A stretch of 64,000 nt of DNA from a bacterium (GTDB lineage Bacteria; Cyanobacteriota; Sericytochromatia; S15B-MN24; VGJW01): contig JAJXWQ010000001.1 in assembly GCA_021781555.1 (NCBI GenBank), positions 7,392 through 71,391 on the forward strand. Direction: 5' to 3'. Of the stretch, positions 1,110 to 40,190 are shown piece by piece. The translations under genes were made by a program, and so were the position numbers. Under the pieces are notes generated by a model, which saw only the letters and a program-made list of their open reading frames with translations, made no database searches and was not told the origin of the DNA. Numbering within the stretch: position 1 is the stretch's first letter; every line of letters begins with the position of its first letter.

Positions 1110-1111
1110 TC

Positions 1112-4834: not shown

Positions 4835-4837
4835 GAC

Positions 4838-17733: not shown

Positions 17734-18698
17734 GCGGCACGGAGGAGACCGGAAGCTCCCTCGGGGCGGCCAGGACAGCCTCGGCCGGACCTGACGCGCT
17801 CCCCCGGGCGCTGAGCCCCCTGCAAGTCTGGCTGGCAGGGAGCCGGCCGCGGACCCTGGTTGCCGGGGCCGCACCCGTGCTGGTCGGCGCCGCCGCGGCC
17901 TGGGGCGCTCCGGGTTACCGCCCGGTCGCCGTCTTGCTGGCGCTGATCGGAGCTTTGGCGTTGCAGGCGGCGTCCAACATGATCAACGACGTGGGCGACG
18001 GCCAGTCGGGCATCGACACGGCCCGGCGGGTCGGCCCCCTGCGCCTGGTCGCCTCGGGCCTGGCCGCACCTGGCCAGATGTGGCTGGCAGCCGGCACCTC
18101 GATTCTGATCGCGTTCATCGCGGGTATCGGACTCGCGCTGATGGCAGGCTGGCCGATCGTTGCCATCGGTCTGCTGGCCATCCTCACGGCCGCGGGCTAC
18201 ACCGTCGGGCCGGCCCCGCTCGGTCGCCTGGGCCTGGGAGAACTGGCCGCGTTCGTCTTCTTCGGCCCGGTCGCGGTGCTGGGCACGGCAGCCGCGGCGA
18301 CGGGCCGGTGGTCCGACCTGCCGCTGGTGTGGAGCCTCCCGACGGGCTTGCTGGCCGGCGCGCTGATGATGGCCAACAACCTGCGCGATCGTGAATCGGA
18401 CGCCGCCGTCGGCAAGCGAACGATCGCCGTTCGCAACGCCACTGCGGCCCGGCTTCTCTACCGGGCCATGATCGCCGGCGCGGTCGGCGTGCCGCTCGTT
18501 CTCTCGATCTGGAGCGAGCGACCGCTCGTGGCTCTGGCGGCGGGAGTCATGTCGCCCTTCGCGATGCGGGCGGCGCTCGCCATTCCAGGTGGCCGCTCCG
18601 GCCGCGAACTGGCGCCGGCGCTCGGGCGGATGGCCGATCTCTTCGCGGTCACGACTTTCGCTCTCGTGGCGGCGCTGATCGCCTCGCATGGAGCCTGA
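17730..18698 (+). CDS. menA: 1,4-dihydroxy-2-naphthoate polyprenyltransferase MenA
   Basis: UbiA-family polytopic membrane protein; [14 protein letters not shown] Asp-rich motif; [10 protein letters not shown] second motif. ATGA overlap with menB. Confidence 0.88.
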
Positions 18699-21423
18699 GC
18701 AGCTCGCCGGCCCGGTTGGCCAGGCCCTGGCGGGGGGCGCGGCGAACAGCTCGAGGCCGCCGCAGGCCGCATGCGAGCAGGGCCGGGATCTCGCGTCGGA
18801 CTCGCGGCGCCTGGTAGGGCTTGATATCAGACCCTACCAGAGGCCGATCGGTGGCGGGATGCCGGTCGGTGAGCGGGTGGGCTTCGAGCTCGTTCTGGTG
18901 GATGATGCCGGCCGGATCGGCCTCGGCGAGGTCGCCCCGCTGGCGGGCTTTGGCTCGGAAGCCCTCGCCGACGCCGAGGTCGCTTTGGCCGCGGCCCGGC
19001 GCAGCCTCGAGAGCGACCGGCCGCCGGCCCCACGAGAGCTCGACGAGGTCGGCCCGCTGCTGGCCGCCCTGGGTCTCGACCGCGATCGCACGCCCGTGGC
19101 CTATGCGGGTCTCGAGCTCTGCCTGCTGGATCACCTGGCGCGCCGGGCGGGTCGGCCACTTGCCGAGCTGCTGGCGGACTGGCCTGGTAACGGCGACGCA
19201 GCTCGACCGACCGGGGGCCGCGCTGGCTCCTGCAAGCGCGAAGTTCCCGTCAACAGCGTCGTCTCGGGCACCGACCCCCACCAGGCGGCGGCCGCCGCCG
19301 GCGCGGCCCGGGCTCTGGGATACCGGACGCTCAAGGTCAAGGTCGGCGACCTCGAGCCTCGCGAGGCGGTGCGCCGGATCGCCGAGATCCGGCGGATCGT
19401 CGGGCCCGAGGTCCTGCTACGGGTCGACGCCGCCCGGGCCTGGCCGCCGACCGAAGCGCGCAGGACTCTCGCGGATCTGGCTGCGCTCGACGTCGAGTAT
19501 GTCGAGGAACCCGCCGCGGATCTCGGCTTTCTGCTGGACGCTCTCGGCCACCGTCCCGACGAGGCGCTGGCCCCGATCGCGGCCGATGAGAGCGCCTGCC
19601 CCTCCGCCCTGGCGTGGCGCTGCCTGGCGTCCAGGGTGCGGCCCTCGGTCTTCGTCCTCAAACCCCTGCTCTTCGGGGGCCTGCTCGAGGCCCGCAGCTT
19701 CGCGCTGGCGGCGCTGGCGGCAGGGGCGCGGGTCGTGGTGACCTCGGCCTTCGAGGGACCTGTCGGTCTGGCCGCGGCCGTCCACCTCGCGGCCTCCTTG
19801 CCGGGCGCACCCGTCGCCTGCGGGCTGGCGACGGCGCACCTGTCGTGCGCTGGCGAGTTCTTGCCGGCCTGGCTCGCGCCGTCGGGGGGAACGCTGACGC
19901 TCGGCGACGAGCCGGGCCTCGGGCTCTCGTTACCCCCGTTCGAGCGTGCAGCTTCGCTGTGGCCCGATCGCCCGGCGCTCGCCATCGACGCTGCCGGGCG
20001 GACCGCGGTGCTGACGCACGGCGAGCTGGCCGATCGCGTGCGGACGGCGGCCGGCCGCCTGGCAAGCCTGGGGGTGGAGCCGGGGAAGATCGTGGGGCTA
20101 CTGGGCGAGAACAGCCTCGGCTGGATCGTCGCCCACCTGGCCCTGCCGCTGCTGAAAGGCGCCAGCTTGCCCCTCAACTTTCGCCTGGCCGATGCCGAAC
20201 TCCGCTGGCAGCTCGAAGCCGCGGGGGCCATCGGCATCCTGTCCGACCAGCTGGACCGGCCGCTGGGCCAGACCGCAGTCTGGCCCCTGTCGGACCTCCT
20301 CGACGCCCCGGACCAGCCGGCTGCCGTTGCCTCGGCGGGCGACGCGGTCGCCACGGGCCGGCCAGGCCTGGTGTCAGCCTTCGATCCCGCGAGCCCGCAC
20401 ACGGTGATCTTCACCTCGGGCACCACCGGCAAGCCCAAAGGGGTGGTCCTCACCGCCGCGCAGCACCAGGCCAGCGCCCGCTCCCTGATCGCGCACCTCG
20501 ACCTGGACGCGGACGATCGGTGGCTGCTGTGCATGCCCGTGTTCCATGTCGGCGGCCTGGGGATCGTGCACCGGATGATCGCCTGCGGCGGCATGGCGAT
20601 CCTGCTCGAGCGGTTCGACGTGGCGCGCGTCGCGACGGCGATCGAACGCTGGCAGCCGACCCGCGTCAGTCTCACGGCCACGATGGCCCGGCGGTTGCTG
20701 GCCGCCCACCCCACGATCCTTGCCGGGGTGCGAACCGTCCTGCTCGGCGGCGAGGCCATCGGGGCCGATTTGCTGGAGGCGATCCCGCAGGCGATCGCCT
20801 CCTACGGCCTTTCGGAGGCCGGCTCGACGGTCGCGGTCGCGGCGCCGGGCGAAAGCGCACTGCATCCGCTGCCGGGCTTCGAGCTCCGGATCGCCGAGGA
20901 CGGGACAGCCTGCCAGCCTGCCGAGGTAGGTCGCGTCGCCATCCGAGGGCCCGCGCTGATGCGGGGCTATCTCGGCGCGACTCCCCTGGATGGGGGCTGG
21001 TTCGAGACGGGCGATCTCGGCGTGTTTCGTCCCGAGGGGGGCTTCTCGATCCTGGCCCGGCGGGAGGACCTCATCCTGTCGGGCGGGGAGAATGTCTATC
21101 CCGCCGAGATCGAGGCCGCGCTGCTCGACCACCCGGAGGTCATCGCCGCCGCGGTGGCAGGGATTCCCGACCCGCGCTGGGGCCAGGTTCCGGTCGCCGC
21201 GGTCGTGCTGCGCGCCAGGTTAGCCGAGGGCGCAGCCCGGGTCCCTTTGGCGCCGGATTCGCCCGCGCCGAGCCCCGAGGAGCTCTCGGCCTTCGTCGGC
21301 GAGCGCCTGGCGCGTTACAAGGTTCCCAGGCAGGTCCGATTCCTCGCCAGCCTTCCGACCCGGCCCTCCGGCAAGCTCGACCGCCGGGCCGTCGCCGCTC
21401 TGTTTTCGCAGGACCCCCGGTAG
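18688..21423 (+). CDS. menCE: apparent fusion of o-succinylbenzoate synthase (MenC, N-terminal, about 420 aa) and o-succinylbenzoate-CoA ligase (MenE, C-terminal, about 490 aa)
   Basis: N-terminal enolase-superfamily motifs (LKVKVGD, DVEYVEEP, IAADES, VLKPLLFGG). C-terminal AMP-binding motifs (FTSGTTGKPKGVVLT, MPVFHVGGLG, LSGGENVYPAEIE, PSGKLDRRA). Uninterrupted ORF with no in-frame ATG or GTG at the junction. Confidence 0.75.
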   Translation: MEPEQLAGPVGQALAGGAANSSRPPQAACEQGRDLASDSRRLVGLDIRPYQRPIGGGMPVGERVGFELVLVDDAGRIGLGEVAPLAGFGSEALADAEVALAAARRSLESDRPPAPRELDEVGPLLAALGLDRDRTPVAYAGLELCLLDHLARRAGRPLAELLADWPGNGDAARPTGGRAGSCKREVPVNSVVSGTDPHQAAAAAGAARALGYRTLKVKVGDLEPREAVRRIAEIRRIVGPEVLLRVDAARAWPPTEARRTLADLAALDVEYVEEPAADLGFLLDALGHRPDEALAPIAADESACPSALAWRCLASRVRPSVFVLKPLLFGGLLEARSFALAALAAGARVVVTSAFEGPVGLAAAVHLAASLPGAPVACGLATAHLSCAGEFLPAWLAPSGGTLTLGDEPGLGLSLPPFERAASLWPDRPALAIDAAGRTAVLTHGELADRVRTAAGRLASLGVEPGKIVGLLGENSLGWIVAHLALPLLKGASLPLNFRLADAELRWQLEAAGAIGILSDQLDRPLGQTAVWPLSDLLDAPDQPAAVASAGDAVATGRPGLVSAFDPASPHTVIFTSGTTGKPKGVVLTAAQHQASARSLIAHLDLDADDRWLLCMPVFHVGGLGIVHRMIACGGMAILLERFDVARVATAIERWQPTRVSLTATMARRLLAAHPTILAGVRTVLLGGEAIGADLLEAIPQAIASYGLSEAGSTVAVAAPGESALHPLPGFELRIAEDGTACQPAEVGRVAIRGPALMRGYLGATPLDGGWFETGDLGVFRPEGGFSILARREDLILSGGENVYPAEIEAALLDHPEVIAAAVAGIPDPRWGQVPVAAVVLRARLAEGAARVPLAPDSPAPSPEELSAFVGERLARYKVPRQVRFLASLPTRPSGKLDRRAVAALFSQDPR

Positions 21424-22285: not shown

Positions 22286-23335
22286 TCAGGGAGCGACCAC
22301 GCCGCCGACATCGCTGGACTGGGTAGCCAGGACCGTGAGCGATAGCGTGGCAGCACTCGAGCCGCCGACGCTGACCAGCACCTGTGCCGGGCCCGGACTG
22401 ACTTTGGGCACCGTGGTGACGACCAGCCCAGGGCAGGTGCTCGCGATGCTGGCCGTGGCGCCGGCCACGGATATCGACTCGGATGCGGCGATGCCGGCTA
22501 ACCCCCGCCCGTAGATCGTGATCTCGCTGCCGATCGCCGCCTGCTGGGGATAGAGCGTGAAGATTGTCGGCGGGGGTGGGAGGGGCGTCGGGACCGGGGC
22601 CCCGACCGTGGATTCGTAGCTGCCGTTGGAATAGACCACGGCGTCGACGGGATCGGTGTTGGCCGTCAGCGCGGCGTTGACGTAGGCCAGCACGGTCGTG
22701 AAGTCGCTCTGGCTGACGTTGGCCGCACCGGCGAAATAGGTTGGCGTGGGCATGGACCCGATCAGGCTCGCCGGCGCCACGACGCTCGGACCGCGCAGGC
22801 TTTCGATGATCGAGAGGGCGGTGGTGGACGGATCGATGGTGATGAAACCGACCTCGACAGACTCCCAGTTGCCGCTGACCTGCTCCAGGAGTGTGCGCAC
22901 CCGGGCCGCGTCGTGACCGGCGACGTTGTTATCCAGCCCCTTGATGGCCTCGAGGTAATAAACCTCCCCCGCAGTGGGCGACCAGCTCGACAGGTCCAGG
23001 TGGAAATAGCCAGAAGAATCGGTCAGGCCCGTGGCCACGGTGGTGTCGGTCGTGGTGTCGATCAGCGAGACGGTGGCCGAACCCTGGACATCGTTCATCG
23101 TGGCCTGCACGCGGCGCTCGCCGCCAAAGCTCACCTGGCCGACCAGGGCCAGGGGAGCGCCCGGGGACGCCCCGAGGGGATGACGCAGCCCGGCACACCC
23201 TGCGAGTGCCAGGGTCGGCAGACTGGAACTGGCCAGGGTACCCATCGCAAGGGCCAGCGCTCGGCCGCTGCGCCCTGGTCGGAAGGGGGGAAGCCGGTTG
23301 CTGCGGCCAGCCAGGAAGCTCACCTCGTTCTCCAT
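22286..23335 (-). CDS. secreted lipoprotein with transthyretin/CarboxypepD_reg-like N-domain and C-terminal IPT/TIG domain
   Basis: Lipobox LALAGCAG; N-domain paralogous to that of the 1006-aa neighbour (ATVSLIDTTTDTTVATGLTDSSGYFHLDL); IPT-like C-terminus (TIFTLYPQQAAIGSEITIYGRGL). Start may be the internal ATG at 23245. Confidence 0.6.
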   Translation of the reverse strand: MENEVSFLAGRSNRLPPFRPGRSGRALALAMGTLASSSLPTLALAGCAGLRHPLGASPGAPLALVGQVSFGGERRVQATMNDVQGSATVSLIDTTTDTTVATGLTDSSGYFHLDLSSWSPTAGEVYYLEAIKGLDNNVAGHDAARVRTLLEQVSGNWESVEVGFITIDPSTTALSIIESLRGPSVVAPASLIGSMPTPTYFAGAANVSQSDFTTVLAYVNAALTANTDPVDAVVYSNGSYESTVGAPVPTPLPPPPTIFTLYPQQAAIGSEITIYGRGLAGIAASESISVAGATASIASTCPGLVVTTVPKVSPGPAQVLVSVGGSSAATLSLTVLATQSSDVGGVVAP

Positions 23336-23350
23336 CGGATCGCCCTTTCG

Positions 23351-26300
23351 TCAGTAGTCGTAGGGGAGGAGGACGTTCGAGAGGTAGGCGTTGCTCGCCG
23401 CAAAGGTCGCCTGGTAGCGGAGGTACCGCCGGCTCAGGGCCGTGGGGCTGTTGGCCCACGAGCTCCAGGTCGAGCCATCGGCGCTGTCGGAATACTGGAG
23501 GGTGATGCTGGAGCTGTTGCTGGCGATCACGGCCGGCAGCCAGGTGGCGAAGTTGGTGCCGGAGTCGTAGGCCTTGGACAGCGCGTAGGCCCCGCGGGTC
23601 GTGACGGACCAGGATGCCAGCGTGGGCGTGAGTGCGTTGCTGGTCGTCTCGAGCGTCGCCCGGAGCTTGATGGAGGAAGCGGTGATGCCGTTGAGACTGG
23701 CGCCCGACGTCACGTTGCTCATCAGGACATTTCCGGTCGAGCCGTCGAGCACGTCCACGGTCAGGGTCGTGCCGCTCGGCACCGTATCGCTGAAGGAGAG
23801 GGTGTCCCAGAGGGAGTTGGCGGGGCGGGCGATCGCGCTCGTGACCGAGGTTTCGGGCGTGCCTGCTACGTATTCAGCCAGGTAGATCGCTCCGCCAGTG
23901 ACCGCGAACCTGAAAAGGGTGTTGGCTCCGCCATTGAAGTTGGCATTGGTTCCGGCCATATAGAGGTAGGAGCCATCTGATCCGACCTGTGGATAGGCTC
24001 CGTTGGTCAACGCTCCGACCGGGAAGGGCAGATTGACGCTGCCCCCAACGTTGCCGGTCGTCAAGGTGCTGAGGTAGGTGTTCGTACCGCTGCTGCTGGT
24101 GAAATAGAACGTGTTGCTGCCGGTCAGGCCAGCGGCGGAATCTATCGAGTAGCCTGCAGGAGAAGGGTCGTAGATTGTGCCGTAGACGGTACCGAGAGTC
24201 GTACTTACCCCGTTGCCAAGCAGCTCGCACGTGGAGCTGGTGTATTCACAGGCCATGACGTAGGTGCCGTTGGCGGCGGCCCGGTTGATGTACGTGGGGC
24301 CCATTGAACTGTACTGGGCACCATTCCAGGATACGTAGCCGATAAGCGGCGACGTGTGACCCGTGCAGAGCCAGTAAAGGCCGCTCGTGGGATCCCAGAT
24401 CTCGGACTCGGCCCAGCCGATCCTCGTTATCTGGCCGATTAAGCTGCCGGAGAAGTTGTAGAAGTAGTCCGGAGTGCTTGAGCTGTTGCCGAGAAAAAAG
24501 CCGGCCGTGCCCGTGCCGAGGGGTCCTGCCACGGCTTGGCTGACGCCCAGCTGGTGGGCCCAATACGTGCCATTGTAAGGTTGCACAAGCCCGCCGATGT
24601 TGAGGCTGGCGTTTGTTGTTGGAGTCAGGGTCAGGCCGCTGCTCGTGCCCTGAGTGCCGGAGTTGGTGTTGCTGCTGAAGCCCGACCCCGACTGGGAGAA
24701 GGTCGTGACAGCAGCAGCGGGCTGGATGTATCCGCTGCCCCAGGCGGCCGTCGTCCCCGGATCCTCGAAGTTGGTCGTCGAGAGGTTGTCGTCGATCGAT
24801 TGGCTGGCCGTGAAGTTGCCGCCGGCAGGGCTTACCAGGCCAAGGCCCGTGATGAGTGTCAGGGGGCCGCTGATACGGCTCGAGAGGGACGGAGCCGGTA
24901 CGTAGCCCACCGCCTGGGTGTTGTACCAGGTGACGACATTGGGCGAGGGAACGCCATCGAACTCGATCTTGGAGTACTGGCCCTGCGTGCCGAAGTTCTG
25001 CCCCGTGATGGTCACCTGGGTGGCCTGGCTGCCCACAGTGGGGGTGAACCAGCTGAGCTTCGGAAGAATGTAGGCGAAGTAGTAGCCGACCGTGACCCCG
25101 CTGACGGTGACCGTGAGCGGACCCGAGGAGCCGTTGGCAGGAACCGCCGCCAGGAGGGTTTCCGGATCGGCATAGGTGACGCTGGCTGTCGCGCCATTGA
25201 AATCGACGGTGACGCTGCCCGTGGACTGTGGGAACCCGGAGCCGCGAATCATGATCGTATCGCCCGGCGCGCCGCCCGTCGGCGAGACCGAGGAGATCGA
25301 GAGCCCCAAACTGCCCCCACCCCCCGACCCGCCGCTACCCGAGCCCGTTGCGACCGCCAGGGTGTAGGCCACGGCCGCGCTCGTGCCCAGACTCGTCGTC
25401 ACGGTGACGTTGCCCGAGCTCGGGGCATTGGCGGGCACGAAGACCCCCAAGGTGTCCGCCGCAGCGCAGAAGACCGATGCCGTCGCCGCCCCGAAGAGCA
25501 CCGTATCGCCTGCGGTGACGGGCGAGAAGCCCTTGCCCAGGATCATCATCGCCCCGCCCGTGCCGGGGCTGGCCGGGTCGATCTGACTGATGGACGGGGC
25601 CAGACCAGAACTGCTCTCTACGGGATCCTCGTCGTGGGTCAGGTAACTGGTGATGGCCGCTGCAAGGTTGTTGATGTAAGTCAGCGAGTAGTCCGCCGCG
25701 TCGGGGCTCGAGACCACGGAGCTGCCGGAAACCGTACCGAGGGTGCTGCTCGCGGTCACGTGCGAAGGATCGAGGCTACTGATTACGGCCATGGCCGTGG
25801 TCTGGGCATCGAGCACGATGGTGCTACCCGAGGTGCTCGTCCAGGTGCTGCCGGTCCACTGGAGGAAGGTCCGGAAGCGAGCGACCTGGCTGCCCGCGAC
25901 GTCGGCCAGGAGGCCATGGGTGGACTCGAGCAAGAAGGTGCTGCCGGACATCGGGGTGAAGCCGTTCAGCGGCAGGTAGAAGGTGCCTGCGTTGTCGGAG
26001 TACCCGGTGGCGACCGTGTAACCGGTCGAGAGATCGATCAGCGTGAGGGTCGCCCCGGCCGCCGCGTAGTTGCTGGCCGCCGCGACGTGGAAGACCGGGA
26101 AGTCCACCCGACCGCGCACGGCGGTGGCGCTGGAGACCTCAAGAAGCGGGTCCGAACTGCCTGCGCCTCCCGAGCCGGCGGCTACCCCCGGGGCGACTGC
26201 CGCGCCGGACACGGCGGCAAGCCGTGGCATGCGGGATGCCACCGAAAGACCCTGACACGCGACCAGGATCACGCAGCTCGCCGCCGCGAGCAGCCGTGCC

Positions 26301-26371
26301 GTCGCCGAACAGGCGATGCGGACCGCCGCCAGGCGCGCGTACGGGCGGACGAAGACAGGTGTGATGCGCAT
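23351..26371 (-). CDS. large secreted lipoprotein (1006 aa): CarboxypepD_reg-like domain, at least three IPT/TIG domains, and a 550-aa Gly/Ser/Thr/Tyr-rich beta-rich C-terminal domain
   Basis: Signal peptide plus lipobox LVACQG; IPT motifs ISQIDPASPGTGGAMMILGKGF, ISSVSPTGGAPGDTIMIRGSGF, LSWFTPTVGSQATQVTITGQNFG. Confidence 0.65.
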   Translation of the reverse strand: MRITPVFVRPYARLAAVRIACSATARLLAAASCVILVACQGLSVASRMPRLAAVSGAAVAPGVAAGSGGAGSSDPLLEVSSATAVRGRVDFPVFHVAAASNYAAAGATLTLIDLSTGYTVATGYSDNAGTFYLPLNGFTPMSGSTFLLESTHGLLADVAGSQVARFRTFLQWTGSTWTSTSGSTIVLDAQTTAMAVISSLDPSHVTASSTLGTVSGSSVVSSPDAADYSLTYINNLAAAITSYLTHDEDPVESSSGLAPSISQIDPASPGTGGAMMILGKGFSPVTAGDTVLFGAATASVFCAAADTLGVFVPANAPSSGNVTVTTSLGTSAAVAYTLAVATGSGSGGSGGGGSLGLSISSVSPTGGAPGDTIMIRGSGFPQSTGSVTVDFNGATASVTYADPETLLAAVPANGSSGPLTVTVSGVTVGYYFAYILPKLSWFTPTVGSQATQVTITGQNFGTQGQYSKIEFDGVPSPNVVTWYNTQAVGYVPAPSLSSRISGPLTLITGLGLVSPAGGNFTASQSIDDNLSTTNFEDPGTTAAWGSGYIQPAAAVTTFSQSGSGFSSNTNSGTQGTSSGLTLTPTTNASLNIGGLVQPYNGTYWAHQLGVSQAVAGPLGTGTAGFFLGNSSSTPDYFYNFSGSLIGQITRIGWAESEIWDPTSGLYWLCTGHTSPLIGYVSWNGAQYSSMGPTYINRAAANGTYVMACEYTSSTCELLGNGVSTTLGTVYGTIYDPSPAGYSIDSAAGLTGSNTFYFTSSSGTNTYLSTLTTGNVGGSVNLPFPVGALTNGAYPQVGSDGSYLYMAGTNANFNGGANTLFRFAVTGGAIYLAEYVAGTPETSVTSAIARPANSLWDTLSFSDTVPSGTTLTVDVLDGSTGNVLMSNVTSGASLNGITASSIKLRATLETTSNALTPTLASWSVTTRGAYALSKAYDSGTNFATWLPAVIASNSSSITLQYSDSADGSTWSSWANSPTALSRRYLRYQATFAASNAYLSNVLLPYDY

Positions 26372-26411
26372 CCCAAGACCCCCTTGCTCGAGTGGCGAGT
26401 GAACCCGGATA

Positions 26412-27482
26412 TCAGTCGACCGTGACGGACGCCGTCCCGATCGCCATCCCCGATGAGACCTGGACCTGGTAGGTGCCCGTGGCGCCCGGCGTGAACACCC
26501 CGGCGCTCAGGGTCGAGGCCGGCGGCGGTGAGGCCAGTGGATCGGTGGGACCGTTCACCAGCCAGCAGGTCCAGTTGACCGCAGTGTCGGCGACGGTTTG
26601 ACCCGAGGTGTCGATGCCGGCCGCGGCGAACGTGACGGCCGTGCTCACGCTGGCCGCGGCGGTGGCTGGAGTCACCTGGAACCGGCTCAACACCGAGAAG
26701 CTCCCGCTGCCGGGAGTGCCAGGCACGCCATCGGCCCAGACCGAGATCGGTCCCGTGATCGCAGTGCTCGGAACCGAGACCTCGACCGCCGTGGACGTGG
26801 CGGAGATCGGCGTCGATGCCGTTGCGCCGCCGCCGAAGATGACGTACACGGGCCCCCCGTTGCCGCTAAAATTCAGTCCATCGAGCGTCACAAAGGTGCC
26901 CGGTCCCGCGTTTGCGGGCGTCATCCCCTGGACCGTGGGAATGGCGGTGGGGACGAGGTTGACTGCGGCCGCGCAGATCGAGCTCGGCGCCACGTCCAGC
27001 GAGGCCGTCCCCTGGGCGATCGGGACGTCGCCGAGCCCCGGCGTCTGCGCCTGGAATGCATCGACGGTGATCGCCCGGGCCGTCCCGGCCGCGACCGACA
27101 TGGTGGCGCTGGTCACGAGGGCGCCCTGGCTGGGCCGGGTGATGAGATCGTACGCCAGAAGATTGCCGCGGGAATCGGAGATCTGGATCTCGAGCGAGTT
27201 GGCACTGTCGGGAATGGTCTGCGTCGTGAAGGCCATGCGCTCGGGCCAGCGGATCGTCAGCTGGACCTGCCCGAGCGGGCCGGCGACGCGCAGGCCCCGG
27301 TCCCGATTCTTGGTAGCCGAGATGACAGGCGATCCTGAAGTCCCGGGCGCCACCAGTGCATAGGGTAGGCCAGCTTGCCTCCCCGGGGATCCGGCCGGCT
27401 GAACCCACGTTCCGCCCGCGCACGCCGCCAGCGTCCCGACGGCCAGCACCAGAAAGATGAGAGTGTAATCGTTTCTTTGCAT
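26412..27482 (-). CDS. secreted lipoprotein with IPT/TIG and bacterial Ig-like domains
   Basis: Signal plus lipobox LAACAG; IPT motif (VQGMTPANAGPGTFVTLDGLNFS); Ig-like C-terminus. Confidence 0.6.
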   Translation of the reverse strand: MQRNDYTLIFLVLAVGTLAACAGGTWVQPAGSPGRQAGLPYALVAPGTSGSPVISATKNRDRGLRVAGPLGQVQLTIRWPERMAFTTQTIPDSANSLEIQISDSRGNLLAYDLITRPSQGALVTSATMSVAAGTARAITVDAFQAQTPGLGDVPIAQGTASLDVAPSSICAAAVNLVPTAIPTVQGMTPANAGPGTFVTLDGLNFSGNGGPVYVIFGGGATASTPISATSTAVEVSVPSTAITGPISVWADGVPGTPGSGSFSVLSRFQVTPATAAASVSTAVTFAAAGIDTSGQTVADTAVNWTCWLVNGPTDPLASPPPASTLSAGVFTPGATGTYQVQVSSGMAIGTASVTVD

Positions 27483-27483
27483 G

Positions 27484-28353
27484 TCACTGTACCATCAAGT
27501 CAACAGTTCCATCGGATCGGATGGAGATCGTTGCGGAACCTGATGCCGTGGACCCGGATGCCGTCGCCGTGACGATCACCTGGCCAGGCGGGGCTGAAGC
27601 GGCAGCGGCCACCAGGCCGCTTGCGTCCACCGTGGCCCGGGATGTGTCGGACGAGGCCCAGGTGACGGCGCTGTGGGTCGTTCCATCGGCCATGGTCACG
27701 GTCGCGGCCAGCTGGACTGCCGAAACGTAACCGGGAGCATCGGAGCCTTGCGGCGCCGGGACGTCCAGGACCGCCACCCCGGGCGACACCACGACTTGAA
27801 GCGCGGCCAGTGGCGTCGGCGAGGCGGATGGGGTGGGCGAGGACGTCACAGCCGGCGTAGGCGTCGGTGTCGACCCTGGTGCCGTCGGAGTAGGGGACGG
27901 GGTCAGGGTCGGCGTCGGCGTCGGACCGGGGGACGCCGGGCCTGGCGTCCCGAAGGAGTAGGACGGGGTCGGTGTCGCAGTCGGTGCCGAACTCGGTGTC
28001 GGGCTCGGGGTCGGAGCCGAGGAAGGGGAAGGCGTCGGAGTCGGCGACGGTGTGGCGCCTTGACCGGCGCTGCCGCCGGTTCCGCCGCCAGAGGGATCGC
28101 TGACGCCCCCACAAACCTGCGGTGGAGGGCAGGAGGTGGTCTTCGAAGACGCAACGGAGTGGCTCCCGTGGCCGCTGGTGACGCCCGTGATCCCGGCCAC
28201 GGGCGTGCCATCCGCGCAGCCGATGACCAGGGTCGCCAGGATGACGGCCAGGAGGCGCCCCTGCTGCCGCCGGTCAATGTGCAGACGATCGGCGCTCAGG
28301 ATCCGGACTTGATGGTATTGCACGATTTGCACTCCCCGGAGCCACTCGTTCAT
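27484..28353 (-). CDS. secreted lipoprotein with Pro/Thr-rich linker and C-terminal Big_2-like domain
   Basis: Lipobox LVIGCADG; [18 protein letters not shown] linker; Ig-like C-terminus. Start uncertain: the ORF is open to 28440, but codons 1-30 have atypically AT-rich third positions. Confidence 0.5.
27850..28110 (-). repeat. low-complexity PT-linker coding repeats
   Basis: Reiterated GGCGTCGG/GGGGTCGG motifs encoding (S/T)P(T/S)P repeats. Confidence 0.6.
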
Positions 28354-28799
28354 GTGCCCGAGTGCTGCCACAAATACTATACCCACATGTTCGTAGCAAT
28401 CAAACGACTTTCTGCTCTCGCCAGACAAGAAATCGTTCAACTGGGACCGAGACGAGCGGATGGCAATCAGGAGCTACCAGGCTTCCAGGCTCGCGCGCTG
28501 CGATCGCGGGCCGCGTCCGGGTCCATTCACTCCATCGCCGAGTCCGACGACGCCACGACCTGCGGCGCCACGAGAGCGTCAGAAAGGTCGACGGGGAAGG
28601 TAGAGGCGACATGGTGGTGTCGGAGCCGCCTCTGGCGTCGCCGGGCTCGGCGATGGACATCGCAGGCGCGAATGCGTTGGCCTGTTCCAGCAATGCTAGC
28701 AATTCTATACCATTGTGTTCGTGACATGCAACAAAAAAACTGTCGCCTGCAAACAAAGTCGGGTTTTATTCTGGTGCCGCCTGGAGGGAGGGCGGCACG
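28354..28799. promoter_or_regulatory. divergent regulatory region between the lipoprotein operon and the XRE regulator, containing two copies of an operator-like direct repeat
   Basis: CAAATACTATACCCACATGTTCGTAGCAATCAAAC (about 28366-28400) versus CAATTCTATACCATTGTGTTCGTGACATGCAACAAA (about 28697-28732). Both lie in AT-rich patches flanking a GC-rich core. Confidence 0.45.
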
Positions 28800-29180
28800 G
28801 TGCAGGACTTCGGCGCCTTCATCAAGTCCAAGCGCGAGGCCAGAAACTGGACCCTGCGCGAGGCGGCAGACCACATCGACATCTCGTCCAGCCGGCTGGC
28901 CGAGATCGAGCGCGGGGTCTCCTACCACACGGAAAGGCCGACACGGCCGACGCCGGACCTGGTCGAGCGTATCGCACGGGTTTACGACGTGCCGGTCGCT
29001 TATGCCCTGGCCGAGGCTGGCTACACGCCTCACAATGGACTACGGCTGGCACCGGATGCCGAGCTCCTGGTATCGCTGTTCGAGAGCCTGGATCGCGAAC
29101 GCAGGGAGCTGGCCCTCGACTTTCTCCGGCTGCTGCTGGAGCACGCGAGCCGATCGGCATCCGAGGCCGACCAGGGCTGA
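28800..29180 (+). CDS. XRE-family (Cro/C1-type HTH) transcriptional regulator
   Basis: 126 aa; GTG start after RBS GGAGGGAGGG; HTH (RNWTLREAADHIDISSSRLAEIERG). Confidence 0.75.
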   Translation: MQDFGAFIKSKREARNWTLREAADHIDISSSRLAEIERGVSYHTERPTRPTPDLVERIARVYDVPVAYALAEAGYTPHNGLRLAPDAELLVSLFESLDRERRELALDFLRLLLEHASRSASEADQG

Positions 29181-29252: not shown

Positions 29253-30488
29253 TCAGTTGGTGGGCACGAGCTCCCGGATCCGGTTGTCGCCGAAATCGCT
29301 TACCACGACCCCGCTCCCGGACGCCACCAGGCCCAGGGGGTCCGCCAGCTGGGCTGCCAAAGCCGGCCCGCCATCGCCCGCGTTGCCTGACGATCCGGTC
29401 CCGGCGATGGTCCGGATCGTGCCTGCTGGCGAGATCGCCCGGATCTCCGAGTTCCCGGAATCGGCCACCAGCAGCGTTCCGTCTGGAAGCAGGGCCAGCG
29501 CGGCCGGGCCGTGCAGGTCAGCGTCGACCGCCGGACCGCCATCGCCGGCCGAGCCTGCGACGCCCGTTCCCGCCACCGTGTGGATGATCCCGCTCGGGTC
29601 GACCATCCGCACGCGCTGGGCGGCGAAGTCCGCGATGTAGACGTCGCCCTTGTTGTCTGGCAGGACCGCGATCGGTTGATCGAGCTCTGCCGACAGCGCG
29701 GGACCCTCATCGCCGATGCTCCCGGTGGCACCCGTCCCCGCGATGACCGTGAGCGTTCCCGAGGGGGCCAGGCGATCCACCCGCGCCCCGTTGAATTCGC
29801 ACAGGTACAGGTTCCCGGCCGCATCGTAGGCCAGGCCGGCCGGCCCCGCGAGAATCGATGCCGTCGCGACGCTCCCCGAGGCCACCGGCGTGAGCGTGCC
29901 TCCGCCCGCGATCGTCGTGACGATACCCTGCCCATCGACCTGGCGAACTCGGTCGTTGCCGTAGTCCGCGATGGCGACATCCCCGCCGGGAGCCGAGGCC
30001 ACATCGAAGGGATGATCGAACTGGGCGTCGATCGCCGGTCCACCATCGCCCGCAAAGCCGAAAGCACCGAAACCGGCGAAGGTCGACACGATTCCGGCGG
30101 GCGAGACCGCCCGGATCTTGTGGTTGCCATAGTCGGCGATCAGCACGCTCCCGTTGCCCGAAAGGGCCACGCCGGCGGGGGAATTGAACTCCGCCAGGAG
30201 CGCCGAACCGCCGTCGCCCGTGTTGCCGGCCGAACCGCTGGCGTCGCCAGCCAGCGCCAGGATCTGGTAGGCCGCCGGCGTCGGGACCGCGGTGGGCGCC
30301 GGGCTTGCGGTTCCGCCGGGCCTGGCGGTCGGCACCGGTGTGGGCGTCGGGGTGCCGCCCGAGATCTGCTGATCCGGCGGAAGGGAAGGGCCAGCGGTCG
30401 GATTCATGGGATCGAACGCTGCCGAGCATGCGACGAGCAGAAGGACCGGAACGATCCCGACGAGGGGCAGGAACAACGATCGCGTCAT
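29253..30488 (-). CDS. NHL-repeat beta-propeller lipoprotein
   Basis: Signal plus lipobox LLVACSA; PT-rich linker; six NHL-type repeats (e.g. SPAGVALSGNGSVLIADYGNHKIRAV). Confidence 0.75.
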   Translation of the reverse strand: MTRSLFLPLVGIVPVLLLVACSAAFDPMNPTAGPSLPPDQQISGGTPTPTPVPTARPGGTASPAPTAVPTPAAYQILALAGDASGSAGNTGDGGSALLAEFNSPAGVALSGNGSVLIADYGNHKIRAVSPAGIVSTFAGFGAFGFAGDGGPAIDAQFDHPFDVASAPGGDVAIADYGNDRVRQVDGQGIVTTIAGGGTLTPVASGSVATASILAGPAGLAYDAAGNLYLCEFNGARVDRLAPSGTLTVIAGTGATGSIGDEGPALSAELDQPIAVLPDNKGDVYIADFAAQRVRMVDPSGIIHTVAGTGVAGSAGDGGPAVDADLHGPAALALLPDGTLLVADSGNSEIRAISPAGTIRTIAGTGSSGNAGDGGPALAAQLADPLGLVASGSGVVVSDFGDNRIRELVPTN

Positions 30489-30616: not shown

Positions 30617-30720
30617 GGGTGCTCCCGGTTTGAATGGATCGAGCCCGATGAGTCAAACGGGGCCCGGTTGCGCAGCGAAGCGACCGCGCAGAGGGCCCCG
30701 TTCAAACTGCAAAAGGCCTA
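30617..30720 (+). repeat. palindromic intergenic repeat element, full copy (best reference copy)
   Basis: About 100 bp is near-identical to 11519-11618; it abuts the stop codon of the S8 peptidase gene. Confidence 0.8.
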
Positions 30721-31890
30721 GGGTAGCTTGGACAGGTCGAGTCGACCGATGCGCAAGGTCGGATCCGAGAGGCTCACGACCGGATCGGTGGCGCTTTCCA
30801 GGGCATCGATGATCCTGGGCGCGGTCCAGCTCGGATGCTCGGCACGCAGAATGGCGGCAGCGCCCGAAACGAACGGAGCGGCCATCGACGTGCCAGTGTC
30901 GGACCCATACTCGTCGTCGGGCAAGGTCGAAAGGATCGCATCTCCCGGAGCCGCGATGCCGACCTGCGGGCCCCGATTGGAGTACACGGCCAGGGTGTTG
31001 GCCTGGGTGGTCGCCGCCACGGCGAGCAGGCCAGGCGTGTTGGCCGGCTGCGTGACCGCACCTCCGTCGTTGCCCGCAGCGGCCACGACGACGACGTTCC
31101 TGGACACGGCGTAAGCGATGGCCCGCTGGTAGGCGCTGCTGAGGGACGTGGCCTCGGAGTTGAAGGACATGTTGATGACCTGCGCGCCGTTGTTCACCGC
31201 GTAGACGATGCCCTCGAGCGCCTCCTCGTCGTCTCCGCCTTGCTTGTCCAGGACCTTGACGGAGAGCAACTGGCACTGCCAGCAGACCCCGGCGACTCCG
31301 ATGCCGTTGTTACCCGCCGCGCCGATGATGCCCGCTACGTGGGTCCCATGACCATCCGTATCCTCGCTGTCGGTGCGGCCGGTCAGCGCGTTGAGGCCCA
31401 ACAGGAGGCGTCCGGCAAACTCCGGATGGTAAGGATCGACGCCGGTATCGAGGACGGCCACCCGCACGTGCGAGGCGTCGATGTTCCGCTGCCACAGCGG
31501 ATCCGGGTCGAGGTACGTCGCGCCGAGGGCCCACTGCAACCACAAATCCGGATCGTTCGGCCAGGCCGAGGGGCGCTGGACCGAGTCCGGCTGGACCCAG
31601 CTCACATCCGGTTGCAGCCGCAGGGCTGTCTCAACGGCACGGACGGACGCCGCGGTCGGCAGCTGGTAGAAGCCGACCGGATCTCCCATGAAGAGAGTCT
31701 TGGTCTGCGTCAGGGCGGTCCGCCCCGCCTGCAGGAGCTTGGGCGGCGACCCGGCCTTGAACCCGACCATGAGATTCCGGGCGACCGCCGGTGCTGCCGG
31801 GAAGGGTGCGGCGGCGGGCACCTTGGCCAGGCAGCCGGCCACGGTGCCCGCCAGCACCACGGCAAAGGTCCAGTGGAAGCGCTTGCCCAT
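30718..31890 (-). CDS. S8 family serine peptidase (subtilase), secreted lipoprotein
   Basis: Asp/His/Ser triad motifs VAVLDTGVD, HGTHVAGIIGA, GTSMAAPFVSGAAAIL; signal plus lipobox VAGCLA. Confidence 0.88.
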   Translation of the reverse strand: MGKRFHWTFAVVLAGTVAGCLAKVPAAAPFPAAPAVARNLMVGFKAGSPPKLLQAGRTALTQTKTLFMGDPVGFYQLPTAASVRAVETALRLQPDVSWVQPDSVQRPSAWPNDPDLWLQWALGATYLDPDPLWQRNIDASHVRVAVLDTGVDPYHPEFAGRLLLGLNALTGRTDSEDTDGHGTHVAGIIGAAGNNGIGVAGVCWQCQLLSVKVLDKQGGDDEEALEGIVYAVNNGAQVINMSFNSEATSLSSAYQRAIAYAVSRNVVVVAAAGNDGGAVTQPANTPGLLAVAATTQANTLAVYSNRGPQVGIAAPGDAILSTLPDDEYGSDTGTSMAAPFVSGAAAILRAEHPSWTAPRIIDALESATDPVVSLSDPTLRIGRLDLSKLP

Positions 31891-32194: not shown

Positions 32195-33571
32195 ATGCAC
32201 AAGACCCTCGCCATCACGCTCGCCACGGCGATCCTCGCCGGCTGCGGTGCGATGACGGGTTCGGATGGCAATGGCCTGTCCGGCGCGTCCACCCTGCTCG
32301 CCGCGGCCAGTGCCGGCAACGGCTTCATGTGGGGGGTATCGACCGCAGGGGAGCAGTACGAGGGCGGCGACACGACCAGCCAGTGGCCGGCGTTCGAACT
32401 CGCCGGCAAGACCTCCGAACCGTCGGGCATGGCTGCCGACGGCCTCGCCTATTACAACAGCGACGCAGGGCTGGCGCAGGGGATGGGGCTGAACGGGTTC
32501 CGGACCAGCATCGAGTGGAGCCGGATCGAACCCCGGCCGGGATACTTCGATCCCGCGGGCGTGGCCTACTACCACCGCTTCTTCGCTAGCCTGCGCGCCC
32601 ACGGACTCACGCCCGTCGTCACCCTGATGCACTTCACCTATCCCCAGTGGCTGGACACCCAGTACGGAGGGTGGGCCAACGCGCAGTCGGTCGACCAGTT
32701 CGCCCAGTACGTCGACTTCGTGTCGAAGGAGTACCGCAACGACGTGTCGTGGTGGCTCACCTTCAACGAGCCCAACGTGTTCGTGCCGGGCGCCTACCTG
32801 ACCGGCAACCTCGCACCCGGCCATCACAACCCCATCGAGGCCGCCGAGGTGGCCCTGCACTTCGTGGAGGCGCACGAGCGCGCCTACACGATCATCCACC
32901 AGAACGAACCCGGCGCCCACGTTTCGTTCAACGAATACACCGCGTCCTATGCCATCGGATCGCCTCACGCGACACTTCCGACCCCGTCCAGCGGAATCAA
33001 CCTCAACGACTCGGACTGGATGCTGCACGCCCTCGCCCCGGCGCCGCAGCCGGGCGGCACGATCAACCCCCAGAGCCTGAACCTCCACTACCTGGACTAC
33101 GTGGCGATCGACTACTACTGCAAGTGGCAATTGTCGATCCCCTTCAAGTTCCAGATGGCGTGGAAATGGAACATCTATCCCCAGGGCTTCTACAACGTCC
33201 TCGAGAACTATCACCGCTGGTTCGGATTGCCGATCCTGGTAGCCGAGAATGGCCTGGCAACGCGAGATCTGGCGCCGCGTTCCGACGGCTGGACGCGTTC
33301 GTCCTTCATCGTCGCCCACGTCCAGGAGATGCAAAAGGCCATGGCCAACGGCGTGCCCGTACTGGGCTACTTCGTCTGGTCGATCACGGATAACTGGGAG
33401 TGGGGATCCTTCTCGCCGCGCTTCGGCCTCTACTCGGTCGACTGCCGGGATCACGACTTCCGGAGGATTCCCACGCGTTCGGTCGGCGTGTACCGTCAGA
33501 TCGCGACCCAGGGCGGCGTGACCCCCGCTCTCGAACAGGAGTATCCGCCGCCGCCCGGCACCCAGCTCTGA
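32195..33571 (+). CDS. glycoside hydrolase family 1 (beta-glucosidase-like), secreted lipoprotein
   Basis: Lipobox ILAGCGA; GH1 acid/base motif LTFNEPN and nucleophile motif VAENGLA; FVWSITDNWEW. Confidence 0.85.
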   Translation: MHKTLAITLATAILAGCGAMTGSDGNGLSGASTLLAAASAGNGFMWGVSTAGEQYEGGDTTSQWPAFELAGKTSEPSGMAADGLAYYNSDAGLAQGMGLNGFRTSIEWSRIEPRPGYFDPAGVAYYHRFFASLRAHGLTPVVTLMHFTYPQWLDTQYGGWANAQSVDQFAQYVDFVSKEYRNDVSWWLTFNEPNVFVPGAYLTGNLAPGHHNPIEAAEVALHFVEAHERAYTIIHQNEPGAHVSFNEYTASYAIGSPHATLPTPSSGINLNDSDWMLHALAPAPQPGGTINPQSLNLHYLDYVAIDYYCKWQLSIPFKFQMAWKWNIYPQGFYNVLENYHRWFGLPILVAENGLATRDLAPRSDGWTRSSFIVAHVQEMQKAMANGVPVLGYFVWSITDNWEWGSFSPRFGLYSVDCRDHDFRRIPTRSVGVYRQIATQGGVTPALEQEYPPPPGTQL

Positions 33572-39151: not shown

Positions 39152-39261
39152 ATCCAAAATGCTAGCACAGAGGCGAAGCGCCCGCGCAGAGAGACCCGTG
39201 CAAACCGAGAACCGTACAAAGCTTTCGCCCGCTCCCTCACGGGTGCTACGATCCCGTCCAG

Positions 39262-40158: not shown

Positions 40159-40190
40159 TCGCTCGCACGAGGCGCCGCCAGGGGCGGTGG

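What the first reader, a model, noticed from the sequence alone, without database searches (positions are those of the whole stretch)
22286..28353. Four-gene operon of IPT/TIG and Big-domain lipoproteins with paralogous CarboxypepD_reg-like N-domains
Four consecutive minus-strand genes are separated by 1-40 bp and all encode lipoproteins (lipobox Cys after a signal peptide). One is a PT-linker/Big_2 protein and one is an IPT+Ig protein. The 1006-aa protein has three or more IPT/TIG domains followed by a 550-aa Gly/Ser/Thr/Tyr/Asn-rich beta domain. The 349-aa protein has an N-domain that is clearly paralogous to the N-domain of the 1006-aa protein (ATVSLIDTTTDTTVATGLTDSSGYFHLDL versus ATLTLIDLSTGYTVATGYSDNAGTFYLPL). 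None has an enzymatic motif. The block is flanked by a dedicated XRE regulator and sits next to secreted hydrolases, so it looks like an accessory cell-surface module. It could be an adhesin, an S-layer-associated layer or a carbohydrate-binding layer, and its function is unknown.
Basis: partly seen in the sequence, partly recalled or inferred. Interest (0 to 1): 0.55.

Follow-up and report, generated by a model that had tools for sequence, protein, structure and literature searches.

The report
Sericytochromatia stalk-and-head lipoprotein gene cassette
Four adjacent genes encode lipid-anchored, antibody-fold proteins that are one cassette of a large, undescribed gene family apparently confined to the Sericytochromatia (non-photosynthetic relatives of cyanobacteria); they most likely hold variable binding heads out from the cell envelope, but what they bind is unknown.

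Summary
Four minus-strand genes, A 27484-28353, B 26412-27482, C 23351-26371 and D 22286-23335, lie 1, 40 and 15 bp apart. Each has a signal peptide with a lipobox Cys. A is a Pro/Thr linker plus Big_2. B is an unknown beta domain, a TIG domain and an Ig-like domain. C has three TIG domains and a 480-aa all-beta C-terminal region. D is a headless paralogue of C residues 85-340 (E = 8e-23).

The shared N-domain has no significant Pfam match. The CarboxypepD_reg label has only sub-threshold support. It marks a family found only in Sericytochromatia-type MAGs. It is always N-terminal and sits 11-47 residues after the lipid-anchor Cys. Family genes mostly occur in tandem arrays, with at least 18 in one MAG. 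Their heads are interchangeable: Kelch, NHL, beta-helix-like, TIG arrays or jelly roll.

A, B, C-type and D-type genes recur as a cassette in many relatives, so the block is not strain-specific. The XRE neighbour is not conserved, so it is not "dedicated".

Best reading: envelope-anchored stalk-and-head binding proteins, similar in architecture to Bacteroides surface glycan-binding lipoproteins but with no SusC/D. Localisation and ligand are inferred. This is a new variant of a known kind, of moderate interest.

The parts
27484..28353 (-). Gene A (289 aa from ATG 28353; the alternative GTG 28323 gives 279 aa). Lipoprotein with a Pro/Thr/Ser linker and a C-terminal Big_2-like domain.
   Evidence: ORF. 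Big_2 PF02368 E = 5.4e-07. Orthologues in L003, L005, L007, L009 at 38-47% identity.
28216..28218 (-). Lipobox Cys46 of A (LVIG|C-ADGT).
   Evidence: Pattern plus a hydrophobic h-region, mean Kyte-Doolittle 2.16. Coordinates.
27805..28062 (-). Pro/Thr/Ser-rich linker of A (about residues 98-183).
   Evidence: Sliding-window P+T+S fraction of 0.6-0.93. Linkers are also present in orthologues.
27487..27804 (-). Big_2-like Ig domain of A.
   Evidence: Pfam Big_2. The family HMM 'Ac' hits orthologues at E of 1e-39 to 1e-44.
26412..27482 (-). Gene B (356 aa). Lipoprotein (LAA|C21) with an unknown beta domain carrying a conserved 'WPxR...Y..Q.IP' motif, then TIG, then a C-terminal Ig-like domain.
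   Evidence: ORF. TIG at 182-263, E = 3.4e-04. Orthologues at 29-37% identity. Alignment.
26943..27275 (-). B-specific N-terminal beta domain (residues 70-180), with no Pfam match.
   Evidence: The HMM 'Bn' finds it only in B orthologues.
23351..26371 (-). Gene C (1006 aa). Lipoprotein (LVA|C39): tether, N-module, three TIG domains, propeller-like region, C-terminal jelly roll.
   Evidence: AlphaFold model.
25607..26119 (-). N-module of C (residues 85-255). Family-defining domain with motifs YLLE(A/S)..GL, ARFRT and TTA..IISSLD.
   Evidence: Most conserved part of C, 64% mean pairwise identity among orthologues. Nmod HMM E = 2.4e-67. No Pfam hit.
24788..25606 (-). Three tandem IPT/TIG domains of C (residues 256-528), with a Gly/Ser linker after the first.
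23855..24787 (-). Variable 'head' of C (residues 529-839). All-beta and propeller-like at low confidence.
23354..23854 (-). C-terminal jelly-roll-like domain of C (residues 840-1006). It always sits at the extreme C-terminus and ends in an aromatic residue (...LPYDY).
   Evidence: pLDDT about 85. The HMM 'JR' finds it only at the C-termini of a 950-1050-aa subfamily. No Pfam hit.
22286..23335 (-). Gene D (349 aa). Lipoprotein (LAG|C47): N-module plus one TIG domain, a 'headless' paralogue of C.
   Evidence: BLASTP against C, E = 8e-23. Orthologues at 33-37% identity. AlphaFold model with pLDDT 80-95 over residues 85-340.
22601..23152 (-). N-module of D (residues 62-245). A roughly 7-strand beta sandwich, three helices and a beta hairpin.
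   Evidence: Secondary structure of the model. Nmod HMM E = 1.3e-69.
22328..22570 (-). TIG domain of D (residues 256-336).
28376..28403 (-). Sigma-70-like promoter match (TTGATT-16-TATAGT) just upstream of gene A.
   Evidence: It is the only match in 8 kb, and 0.7 are expected by chance, so it is weak evidence.
29253..30488 (-). Neighbouring NHL beta-propeller lipoprotein (LVA|C plus a Pro/Thr linker). It is homologous to the heads of N-module proteins elsewhere and is possibly an associated 'head-only' member.
   Evidence: Pfam NHL/TEN_NHL. phmmer E = 8e-109 to L010 and 1.4e-89 to L021 N-module proteins.

Best explanation
The block is one 'A-B-C-D' cassette of a multigene family of cell-envelope lipoproteins found so far only in Sericytochromatia-type genomes.

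**Proposed mechanism.**
1. Each product is exported by Sec and lipidated at the lipobox Cys. This is inferred from the sequence pattern.
2. C and D carry the same N-module about 170 aa long. A short Pro-rich tether of 11-47 residues holds it next to the membrane. This anatomy is shown.
3. In C the N-module is followed by a rigid stalk of three IPT/TIG domains and a distal 'head', here a propeller-like region plus a terminal jelly roll. In paralogues the head is swapped for Kelch or NHL propellers, a Gly-rich beta-helix-like region or long TIG arrays. This is shown.
4. The conserved base probably docks all family members onto a common partner. That partner could be another family member, the A/B Ig-fold lipoproteins, or an envelope or export component. 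The fast-evolving head probably binds an external ligand, most likely a glycan or another cell or surface. Both points are inferred.
5. D would be a headless base subunit. A, with its long Pro/Thr spacer and Big_2 domain, and B would be accessory subunits.

The arrangement works like the stalk-and-head surface glycan-binding lipoproteins of Bacteroidota and like fibrillar adhesins. The adjacent lipoprotein hydrolases (S8 protease, GH1 beta-glucosidase) fit a capture-and-degrade role, but this link is weak.
For: **Anatomy.**
- Lipoboxes in A-D and in 81 of 93 family ORFs.
- The N-module is always single and N-terminal.
- TIG and Big_2 domains are detected by Pfam.
- The AlphaFold models give well-formed TIG domains and a C-terminal beta sandwich.

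**Conservation gradient in C orthologues.**
- N-module: 64%
- TIG domains: 50-62%
- Head: 34-43%
- Terminal jelly roll: 53%

**Interchangeable heads on the same base.** Kelch (P0114, P0159, L009), NHL (P0136, P0153), Vgb_lyase-like propeller (P0151), TIG arrays (P0064, P0071, P0074) and a Gly-rich region (P0009, P0010).

**Recurrent co-occurrence of the A, B, C and D families.** They occur together in the window and in L003, L004, L005, L007, L009, L014, L021, L030 and L043, with A directly upstream of B in most.

**Family expansion.** There are 28 loci in species-representative genomes, all from Sericytochromatia, Tanganyikabacteria or unclassified MAGs. Eight loci with at least 18 genes come from one MAG.

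**Structural neighbours.** These are plexin/MET IPT stalks, Bacteroides SGBP-B (5e7g, 6e57, 7k44, 6d2y) and TIG-plus-propeller 'auxiliary nutrient binding' lipoproteins (3tc9, 4hw6, 3hrp).

**Neighbourhood.** Seven lipoproteins lie within 11 kb, including S8 and GH1.
Against: - Nothing shows on which face of which membrane the proteins sit. No lipoprotein surface-export signal is known for this lineage.
- No ligand-binding site or known carbohydrate-binding module was detected. Pfam finds nothing in C residues 515-1006.
- The head model is of low confidence between residues 560 and 740.
- Matches to SGBPs run only through the generic TIG fold.
- No SusC/SusD-type transporter is present.
- Many N-module arrays lack detectable A/B partners, so a fixed A-B-C-D complex is unproven.
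- S8 lies near the module in only 3 of about 40 loci. In L005 this may simply reflect shared synteny.
Confidence: 0.5

Rival explanations
1. The proteins are structural envelope components. They would form a periplasm-spanning scaffold or an S-layer-like coat built from Ig-fold lipoproteins, with no specific external ligand. The N-module would bind peptidoglycan or the outer membrane. The Pro/Thr spacers would act as periplasmic spanners.
For: - The proteins are all-beta Ig-fold lipoproteins with long Pro-rich spacers.
- They are present in high copy number and conserved across the lineage.
Against: - There is no SLH domain or known S-layer or peptidoglycan-binding domain.
- Interchangeable, fast-evolving distal heads are unusual for a structural lattice.
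- The S-layer hit is limited to a generic Ig domain.
Confidence: 0.17
2. The heads are enzymes, and the stalk merely positions a catalytic beta-propeller or jelly roll. Candidates are a lyase, lactonase or oxidase of the NHL, SGL or Kelch/galactose-oxidase type. The family would then be a set of anchored exo-enzymes working alongside the S8 and GH1 lipoproteins.
For: - Paralogue heads hit NHL, SGL, Vgb_lyase, PhoX-like and Kelch families. Some members of these families are enzymes.
- Hydrolase lipoproteins lie next door.
Against: - The window's own C head has no Pfam or NCBIfam hit at all, even at E <= 10.
- D, A and B have no candidate catalytic domain.
Confidence: 0.12
3. The proteins are polymorphic cell-cell recognition or attachment proteins, serving kin recognition, aggregation, or prey or host attachment. 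The tandem paralogue arrays would supply a repertoire of specificities, as with TIG-containing TgrB1/C1 in Dictyostelium or TraA in myxobacteria. This is a special case of the best explanation with a cellular ligand.
For: - Tandem arrays of 2-5 paralogues have divergent heads.
- The head evolves fastest.
- B and D orthologues share only 29-38% identity between relatives.
Against: - There is no population-level polymorphism data.
- Orthologous heads are still recognisably conserved across genera (34-53% identity).
- Nothing is known about Sericytochromatia social or predatory behaviour (literature searches).
Confidence: 0.12
4. The proteins form a lipoprotein-derived pilus, analogous to the type V (FimA/Mfa) pili of Bacteroidota. 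An operon of lipoprotein precursors would be trimmed by a nearby lipoprotein protease, here S8, and polymerised by strand exchange. D would be the anchor or stalk and C the tip.
For: - It is an operon of 4-5 lipoproteins with beta-sandwich domains.
- An S8 lipoprotein protease lies two genes away.
- D is a truncated paralogue of C.
Against: - S8 is near the module in only 3 of about 40 loci.
- No conserved cleavage motif was noted in the tether.
Confidence: 0.04

Closest known systems
Bacteroidota surface glycan-binding lipoproteins (SGBP-B / SusE-SusF-like), e.g. BACOVA_02650 (PDB 5e7g), MLGUL SGBP-B (6e57), PbSGBP-B (6d2y)
   Same: - N-terminal lipidated Cys.
- Tandem Ig/IPT domains form a stalk, with a distal binding domain.
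- The genes sit beside glycoside-hydrolase lipoproteins.
   Different: - No SusC/SusD pair is present anywhere in the window.
- The N-module is absent from SGBPs.
- Similarity is confined to the generic TIG fold.
- The phylum is different.
- Glycan binding is untested here.
Bacteroides 'auxiliary nutrient binding' lipoproteins with IPT/TIG plus a six-bladed beta-propeller (BT_3476 3tc9, BACOVA_00264 4hw6, 3hrp, 3kya)
   Different: - They have a single TIG domain, no N-module and no A/B/D partners.
- Their own function is not established either.
Fibrillar adhesins (stalk domains such as TIG or Big_2 plus an adhesive tip; Monzon & Bateman, PMC8286594 and PMC9210967)
   Same: The logic is stalk plus tip, the same stalk domain families are used, and the tip evolves rapidly.
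   Different: - The stalk here is short (three TIG domains).
- Anchoring is by lipid, not by LPXTG, T1SS or T5SS.
- A conserved membrane-proximal N-module is present.
- The system is a multi-gene cassette with accessory lipoproteins.
Leptospira LIC10067-family putative lipoproteins (NCBIfam NF047769)
   Same: Both are TIG-containing lipoproteins, and this is the best NCBIfam hit for C.
   Different: The score is 42 bits against a cut-off of 200 and covers the TIG part only. C is not a member.
Deinococcus radiodurans T2SS belt protein, an IPT/TIG protein (PDB 8co1; PMC10828601)
   Different: The match is one generic domain. There is no secretin in or next to the cassette and no other shared architecture.

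Membership tests
IPT/TIG domain (PF01833) | Pfam HMM score above the gathering threshold (20.9 bits) | tested here: met
Big_2 bacterial Ig-like domain (PF02368) | Pfam HMM score above the gathering threshold (22.8 bits) | tested here: met
   A scores 29.9 bits, E = 5.4e-07.
Bacterial lipoprotein (Lgt/LspA substrate) | Signal peptide with a lipobox [LVI][ASTVI][GAS]C | tested here: met
   The pattern and a hydrophobic h-region are present in A-D. The Cys is conserved in orthologues and in 81 of 93 family ORFs. No SignalP or LipoP run was possible, and lipidation itself cannot be tested here.
Sus-like polysaccharide utilisation locus (SGBP membership) | An adjacent SusC (TonB-dependent transporter) and SusD pair | tested here: not met
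   Pfam scans of most window ORFs found no TonB-dependent receptor or SusD. The same holds for the gene lists of the related loci. Only a TonB_C protein is present, 12 kb away.
Sus-like polysaccharide utilisation locus (SGBP membership) | Demonstrated glycan binding by the distal domain | not testable with these tools
   This needs recombinant protein and glycan arrays or ITC.
LIC10067 family lipoprotein (NF047769) | NCBIfam score >= 200 bits | tested here: not met
   The score is 42.3 bits.
Type V (FimA/Mfa) pilins | Two-domain pilin fold, plus protease-dependent maturation and polymerisation | tested here: not met
S-layer proteins | An SLH or other known anchoring domain, or homology to a characterised S-layer protein | tested here: not met
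N-module lipoprotein family (defined here) | A roughly 170-aa domain with the YYLEA-KGL / ARxRT / TTALS motifs, single, 11-47 residues after the lipobox Cys, followed by at least one TIG domain | tested here: met
   The Nmod HMM scores E = 2.4e-67 for C and 1.3e-69 for D. Position and tether are documented.

The most novel reading that the evidence does not exclude
The N-module would be a previously undescribed display or docking domain specific to Sericytochromatia. A conserved membrane-proximal base, working with the A/B lipoprotein pair as a dedicated platform or export partner, would present dozens of interchangeable propeller, beta-helix or jelly-roll heads per genome on the cell surface. 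This would be an independently evolved counterpart, without SusC/D, of the Bacteroidota surface-lipoprotein capture systems. Alternatively it would be a prey or partner attachment repertoire, in the sister class of the oxygenic cyanobacteria.
Probability: 0.25. Interest if true: 0.6.

Novelty: new variant of a known kind. Interest (0 to 1): 0.4.

Why it matters
Sericytochromatia are represented almost only by metagenome-assembled genomes, and their cell surface is essentially uncharacterised. This family is large, with at least 18 genes in one MAG. In every search here it turned up only in Sericytochromatia-type MAGs. It is built on a domain with no significant Pfam match.

- It gives a concrete handle on how these organisms contact their environment, whether by nutrient capture, adhesion or cell-cell contact.
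- It provides a candidate sequence marker for the class.
- It offers a set of natural 'same base, different head' proteins for studying lipoprotein display outside the Bacteroidota and spirochaetes.

In practical terms, the N-module, the B N-domain and the C-terminal jelly roll are three candidate new domain families for databases.

Tried and rejected
1. **Genome-contig scan with the C alignment.** The patterns matched 13 stretches, but none was confirmed. A five-sequence alignment worked.
2. **Exhaustive HMMER search with the D profile.** The list was swamped by multi-TIG proteins, with 26,890 hits. Only about 13 of the 144 newly found proteins in the top 150 carry the N-module, so the total family size could not be read off.
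4. **PDB sequence-profile search.** It gave only TIG hits, plus artefactual scFv hits caused by the Gly/Ser linker.
5. **CarboxypepD_reg identity of the N-domain.** Sub-threshold only.
6. **XRE as a dedicated regulator.** Rejected, because there is no homologue in any related locus. Small palindromes in the 447-bp divergent intergenic region were not followed up.
7. **S8 protease as a conserved partner.** It is near the module in only 3 loci.
8. **Type V pilus and S-layer ideas.** No structural support.
9. **Horizontal-transfer island.** GC content is 65-70%, like the surroundings, and the wider synteny is shared with L005, so this was rejected.
10. **Rfam scan.** It found only a tRNA, far from the block.
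11. **Literature searches.** No description of this family was found.
12. **Structure of B.** It was not predicted.

Full report
**1. What is in the sequence**

The region 22286-28353 holds four minus-strand ORFs. I call them A to D.

| Gene | Coordinates | Length |
|---|---|---|
| A | 27484-28353 | 289 aa from ATG 28353 |
| B | 26412-27482 | 356 aa |
| C | 23351-26371 | 1006 aa |
| D | 22286-23335 | 349 aa |

- For A, the ORF extends to a TTG at 28440, and public gene calls use GTG 28323 (279 aa).
- Read off the sequence, the gaps are 1, 40 and 15 bp.
- Third-position GC of 0.83-0.84 supports the B, C and D frames.
- For A the codon statistics are blurred by the Pro/Thr run. The frame is fixed by the Big_2 hit and by the orthologues.
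- A weak sigma-70-like match (TTGATT-16-TATAGT, 28403-28376) lies just upstream of A. There is no terminator-like site inside the block. This is compatible with one transcript but does not prove it.
- GC content is 65-70%, like the flanks.

**2. Lipoproteins**

Each protein has a positively charged n-region, a hydrophobic h-region and a lipobox: A LVIG|C46, B LAA|C21, C LVA|C39, D LAG|C47. The Cys column is conserved in the C alignment and in the orthologues of all four families.

Three further neighbours also carry lipoboxes:
- the NHL protein at 29253-30488 (LVA|C)
- the S8 protease at 30718-31890 (VAG|C)
- the GH1 glucosidase at 32195-33571 (LAG|C)

That makes seven lipoproteins in about 11 kb, far more than chance would give. 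No dedicated predictor was available, and lipidation is inferred.

**3. Domains**

- **A** has Big_2 (5.4e-07) after a Pro/Thr/Ser linker of about 86 residues.
- **B** has one TIG domain (3.4e-04, at the threshold). It lies between an N-terminal beta domain with a conserved WPxR...Y..Q.IP motif and a C-terminal Ig-like domain ending ATASVTV. Neither of these flanking domains is in Pfam.
- **C** has three TIG stretches.
- **D** has one TIG domain.

NCBIfam gives only a far sub-threshold LIC10067_lipo hit for C, 42 bits against a cut-off of 200. No enzyme family is hit.

D aligns with C residues 108-340 at 31% identity, E = 8e-23. D is therefore a headless paralogue of C's N-terminal third, not merely a protein sharing one N-domain.

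**4. Structure models**

*Model of C* (10-sequence alignment, mean pLDDT 60.5):
- three confident TIG domains (256-528)
- a poorly resolved all-beta region (560-740)
- a better-defined region at 745-839
- a confident beta sandwich of about 165 residues at the very C-terminus (840-1006)

*Model of D* (17 sequences, mean pLDDT 72, and 80-95 over residues 85-340):
- the N-module is a roughly 7-strand sandwich (62-160), three helices (169-224) and a hairpin
- one TIG domain follows

*Fold searches:*
- The notable hits are Bacteroides lipoproteins with the same layout. These are SGBP-B proteins (5e7g, 6e57, 7k44, 6d2y) and the TIG-plus-propeller 'auxiliary nutrient binding proteins' (3tc9, 4hw6, 3hrp, 3kya).
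- No informative hit was obtained for the N-module.

**5. Relatives and context**

The organism is Sericytochromatia-like. C's full-length homologues come from MAGs labelled Candidatus Sericytochromatia, 'Cyanobacteria bacterium REEB65', 'bacterium' and Pantanalinema sp., the last a name automatically assigned to a MAG.

BLAST and HMM classification of neighbouring genes shows that the four families travel together.

| Locus | Gene order |
|---|---|
| L003 | A-B-C-D |
| L004 | A-B-C-D |
| L005 | A-C, with D-B divergent |
| L007 (second locus of the same genome as L003) | C-D-C-A-B |
| L009, L030 | D-A-B-D-C |
| L014 | A-B-C |
| L021 | C(NHL head)-A-B |
| L043 | A-B-D-C (1737 aa, 12 TIG) |

A lies directly upstream of B in most of these loci.

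A scan of one genome per species for the motif YYLEA[VIL]KGL found 28 loci. All are in Sericytochromatia, Tanganyikabacteria or unclassified MAGs, or in MAGs carrying cyanobacterial genus names (Stenomitos sp.) that may be mis-assigned. Their GC content is 0.56-0.69. Eight of the loci are in one MAG (LC003) and together hold at least 18 N-module ORFs.

Features of the family:
- N-module genes mostly occur in tandem arrays of 2-5. Many arrays lack detectable A/B genes.
- The N-module is always single and N-terminal.
- It is tethered to the lipobox Cys by 11-47 residues in all but one of the ORFs listed, and the tether is Pro-rich, 24% Pro.

**6. Interchangeable heads**

On the same base (N-module plus, usually, three TIG domains), paralogues carry different heads:
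- Kelch propellers (P0114, P0159, L009)
- NHL propellers (P0136, P0153)
- a Vgb_lyase-like propeller (P0151)
- long TIG arrays (P0064, P0071, P0074)
- a Gly-rich beta-helix-like region (P0009, P0010)
- in one low-GC organism, DUF4331 (P0032)

The window's neighbouring NHL lipoprotein is homologous to such heads, with E = 8e-109 to L010. It is in effect a head-only member.

The 167-residue C-terminal domain of C occurs only at the extreme C-terminus of a 950-1050-aa subfamily. In all but two of the proteins found it ends in a Tyr (PYTY, PYQY, NYHY).

Among C orthologues, mean pairwise identity falls from the base to the head:

| Region | Identity |
|---|---|
| N-module | 64% |
| TIG domains | 50-62% |
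| Head | 34-43% |
| Terminal domain | 53% |

**7. Neighbours**

- The XRE gene (28800-29180, +) has no homologue in any related locus. It is a local neighbour, not a dedicated regulator.
- S8 homologues lie near the module in only three loci: L007, L035 and L005.
- The window and L005 share a wider gene neighbourhood: ribosomal L10/L1/NusG, GT2, AdoMet decarboxylase, TPR-unknown-TonB_C, LplA, MerR and S8. The module sits at different points within it. This argues for vertical inheritance with local rearrangement and against a mobile island.

**8. Interpretation**

*Shown:*
- A conserved, expanded family of lipobox proteins found only in Sericytochromatia-type MAGs.
- The architecture is anchor, short tether, conserved N-module, TIG stalk and variable head.
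- Headless (D) and accessory Ig-fold (A, B) partners recur in cassettes.

*Inferred:*
- The conserved base docks to a common partner or envelope component.
- The stalk projects the head, and the head binds a ligand.

The closest working analogy is the Bacteroidota SGBP/SusE-F class and fibrillar adhesins. Membership of a Sus-like locus fails because there is no SusC/D.

Rivals that remain open:
- a structural envelope scaffold
- anchored enzymes
- a recognition repertoire
- a lipoprotein-derived pilus, which is unlikely

Localisation and ligand are unknown.

**9. Verdict**

The block is an instance of an undescribed lineage-specific family. It is a new variant of a known kind of system, of moderate interest.

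Noticed in passing
window 29253-30488 (-): An NHL beta-propeller lipoprotein with a Pro/Thr linker. It is homologous to the C-terminal heads of N-module proteins in other loci (E = 8e-109 to L010, 1.4e-89 to L021). It looks like a 'head-only' relative of the family.
   Followed up: partly
window 32195-33571 (+): A GH1 beta-glucosidase with a lipoprotein signal (MHKTLAITLATAILAG|C). GH1 enzymes are usually cytoplasmic, so an anchored extracytoplasmic GH1 next to the cassette is unusual.
   Followed up: partly
window 30718-31890 (-): An S8 subtilase lipoprotein (VAG|C). Its best NCBIfam similarity is to mycosin and dentilisin PrtP, below their cut-offs. Homologues lie near the module in only 3 related loci.
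   Followed up: partly
window 38234-46191, and L005 14847-21818: The cluster TPR protein (1119 aa), unknown protein (670 aa), TonB_C protein, LplA and MerR is conserved with L005, where it directly abuts the module. The unknown 670-aa protein has no Pfam hit.
   Followed up: partly
window 18688-21423 (+): A single 911-aa ORF fuses an MR_MLE (MenC-like o-succinylbenzoate synthase) domain to an AMP-binding (MenE-like ligase) domain. It lies at the end of a menaquinone operon (MenF, MenD, MenB, MenA upstream).
   Followed up: no
L004 7055-8764 (+): The A-family gene of this locus is an open frame of about 570 codons (stop to stop) with five tandem Big_2-like repeats. The public gene calls show only a 65-aa fragment, plus a probably spurious 309-aa ORF on the opposite strand.
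   Followed up: partly
P0032 / L041 1891-3057: An N-module fused to DUF4331 (PF14224) instead of TIG plus a head. It comes from a low-GC organism, and a second DUF4331 gene lies upstream. It is the only family member seen that looks as if it comes from outside the high-GC Sericytochromatia group.
   Followed up: partly
window 23354-23854 (C residues 840-1006) and paralogues: A conserved C-terminal jelly-roll-like domain that is always at the extreme C-terminus. In all but two of the proteins found it ends in Tyr (PYTY/PYQY/NYHY). A sorting or docking role, like C-terminal signals in other surface-protein systems, is conceivable but untested.
   Followed up: partly
A-family proteins: window 28203-28215, L003, L007, L014: A-family proteins tend to have acidic residues just after the lipobox Cys (ADGT, ASSED, SDDPE, EDNT). 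This resembles the Bacteroidota lipoprotein surface-export signal. N-module proteins instead have Pro-rich tethers. The sample is small (n = 4-5).
   Followed up: no
window 1-6879 (+): A chemotaxis cluster: an MCP fragment, CheA (Hpt/H-kinase_dim/HATPase/CheW), CheR and CheB.
   Followed up: no
window 52649-58948 (-): Type IV pilus/T2SS-type genes: a PilC-like T2SSF, a PilT-like ATPase, and a PilB-like ATPase with MshEN and zinc-ribbon domains. A 568-aa protein with a Roadblock/LC7 domain lies next to them.
   Followed up: no
window 8576-10273 (+) and 49580-49652 (-): An MlaD-domain protein (565 aa), and a single tRNA gene, which is the only Rfam hit in the window.
   Followed up: no
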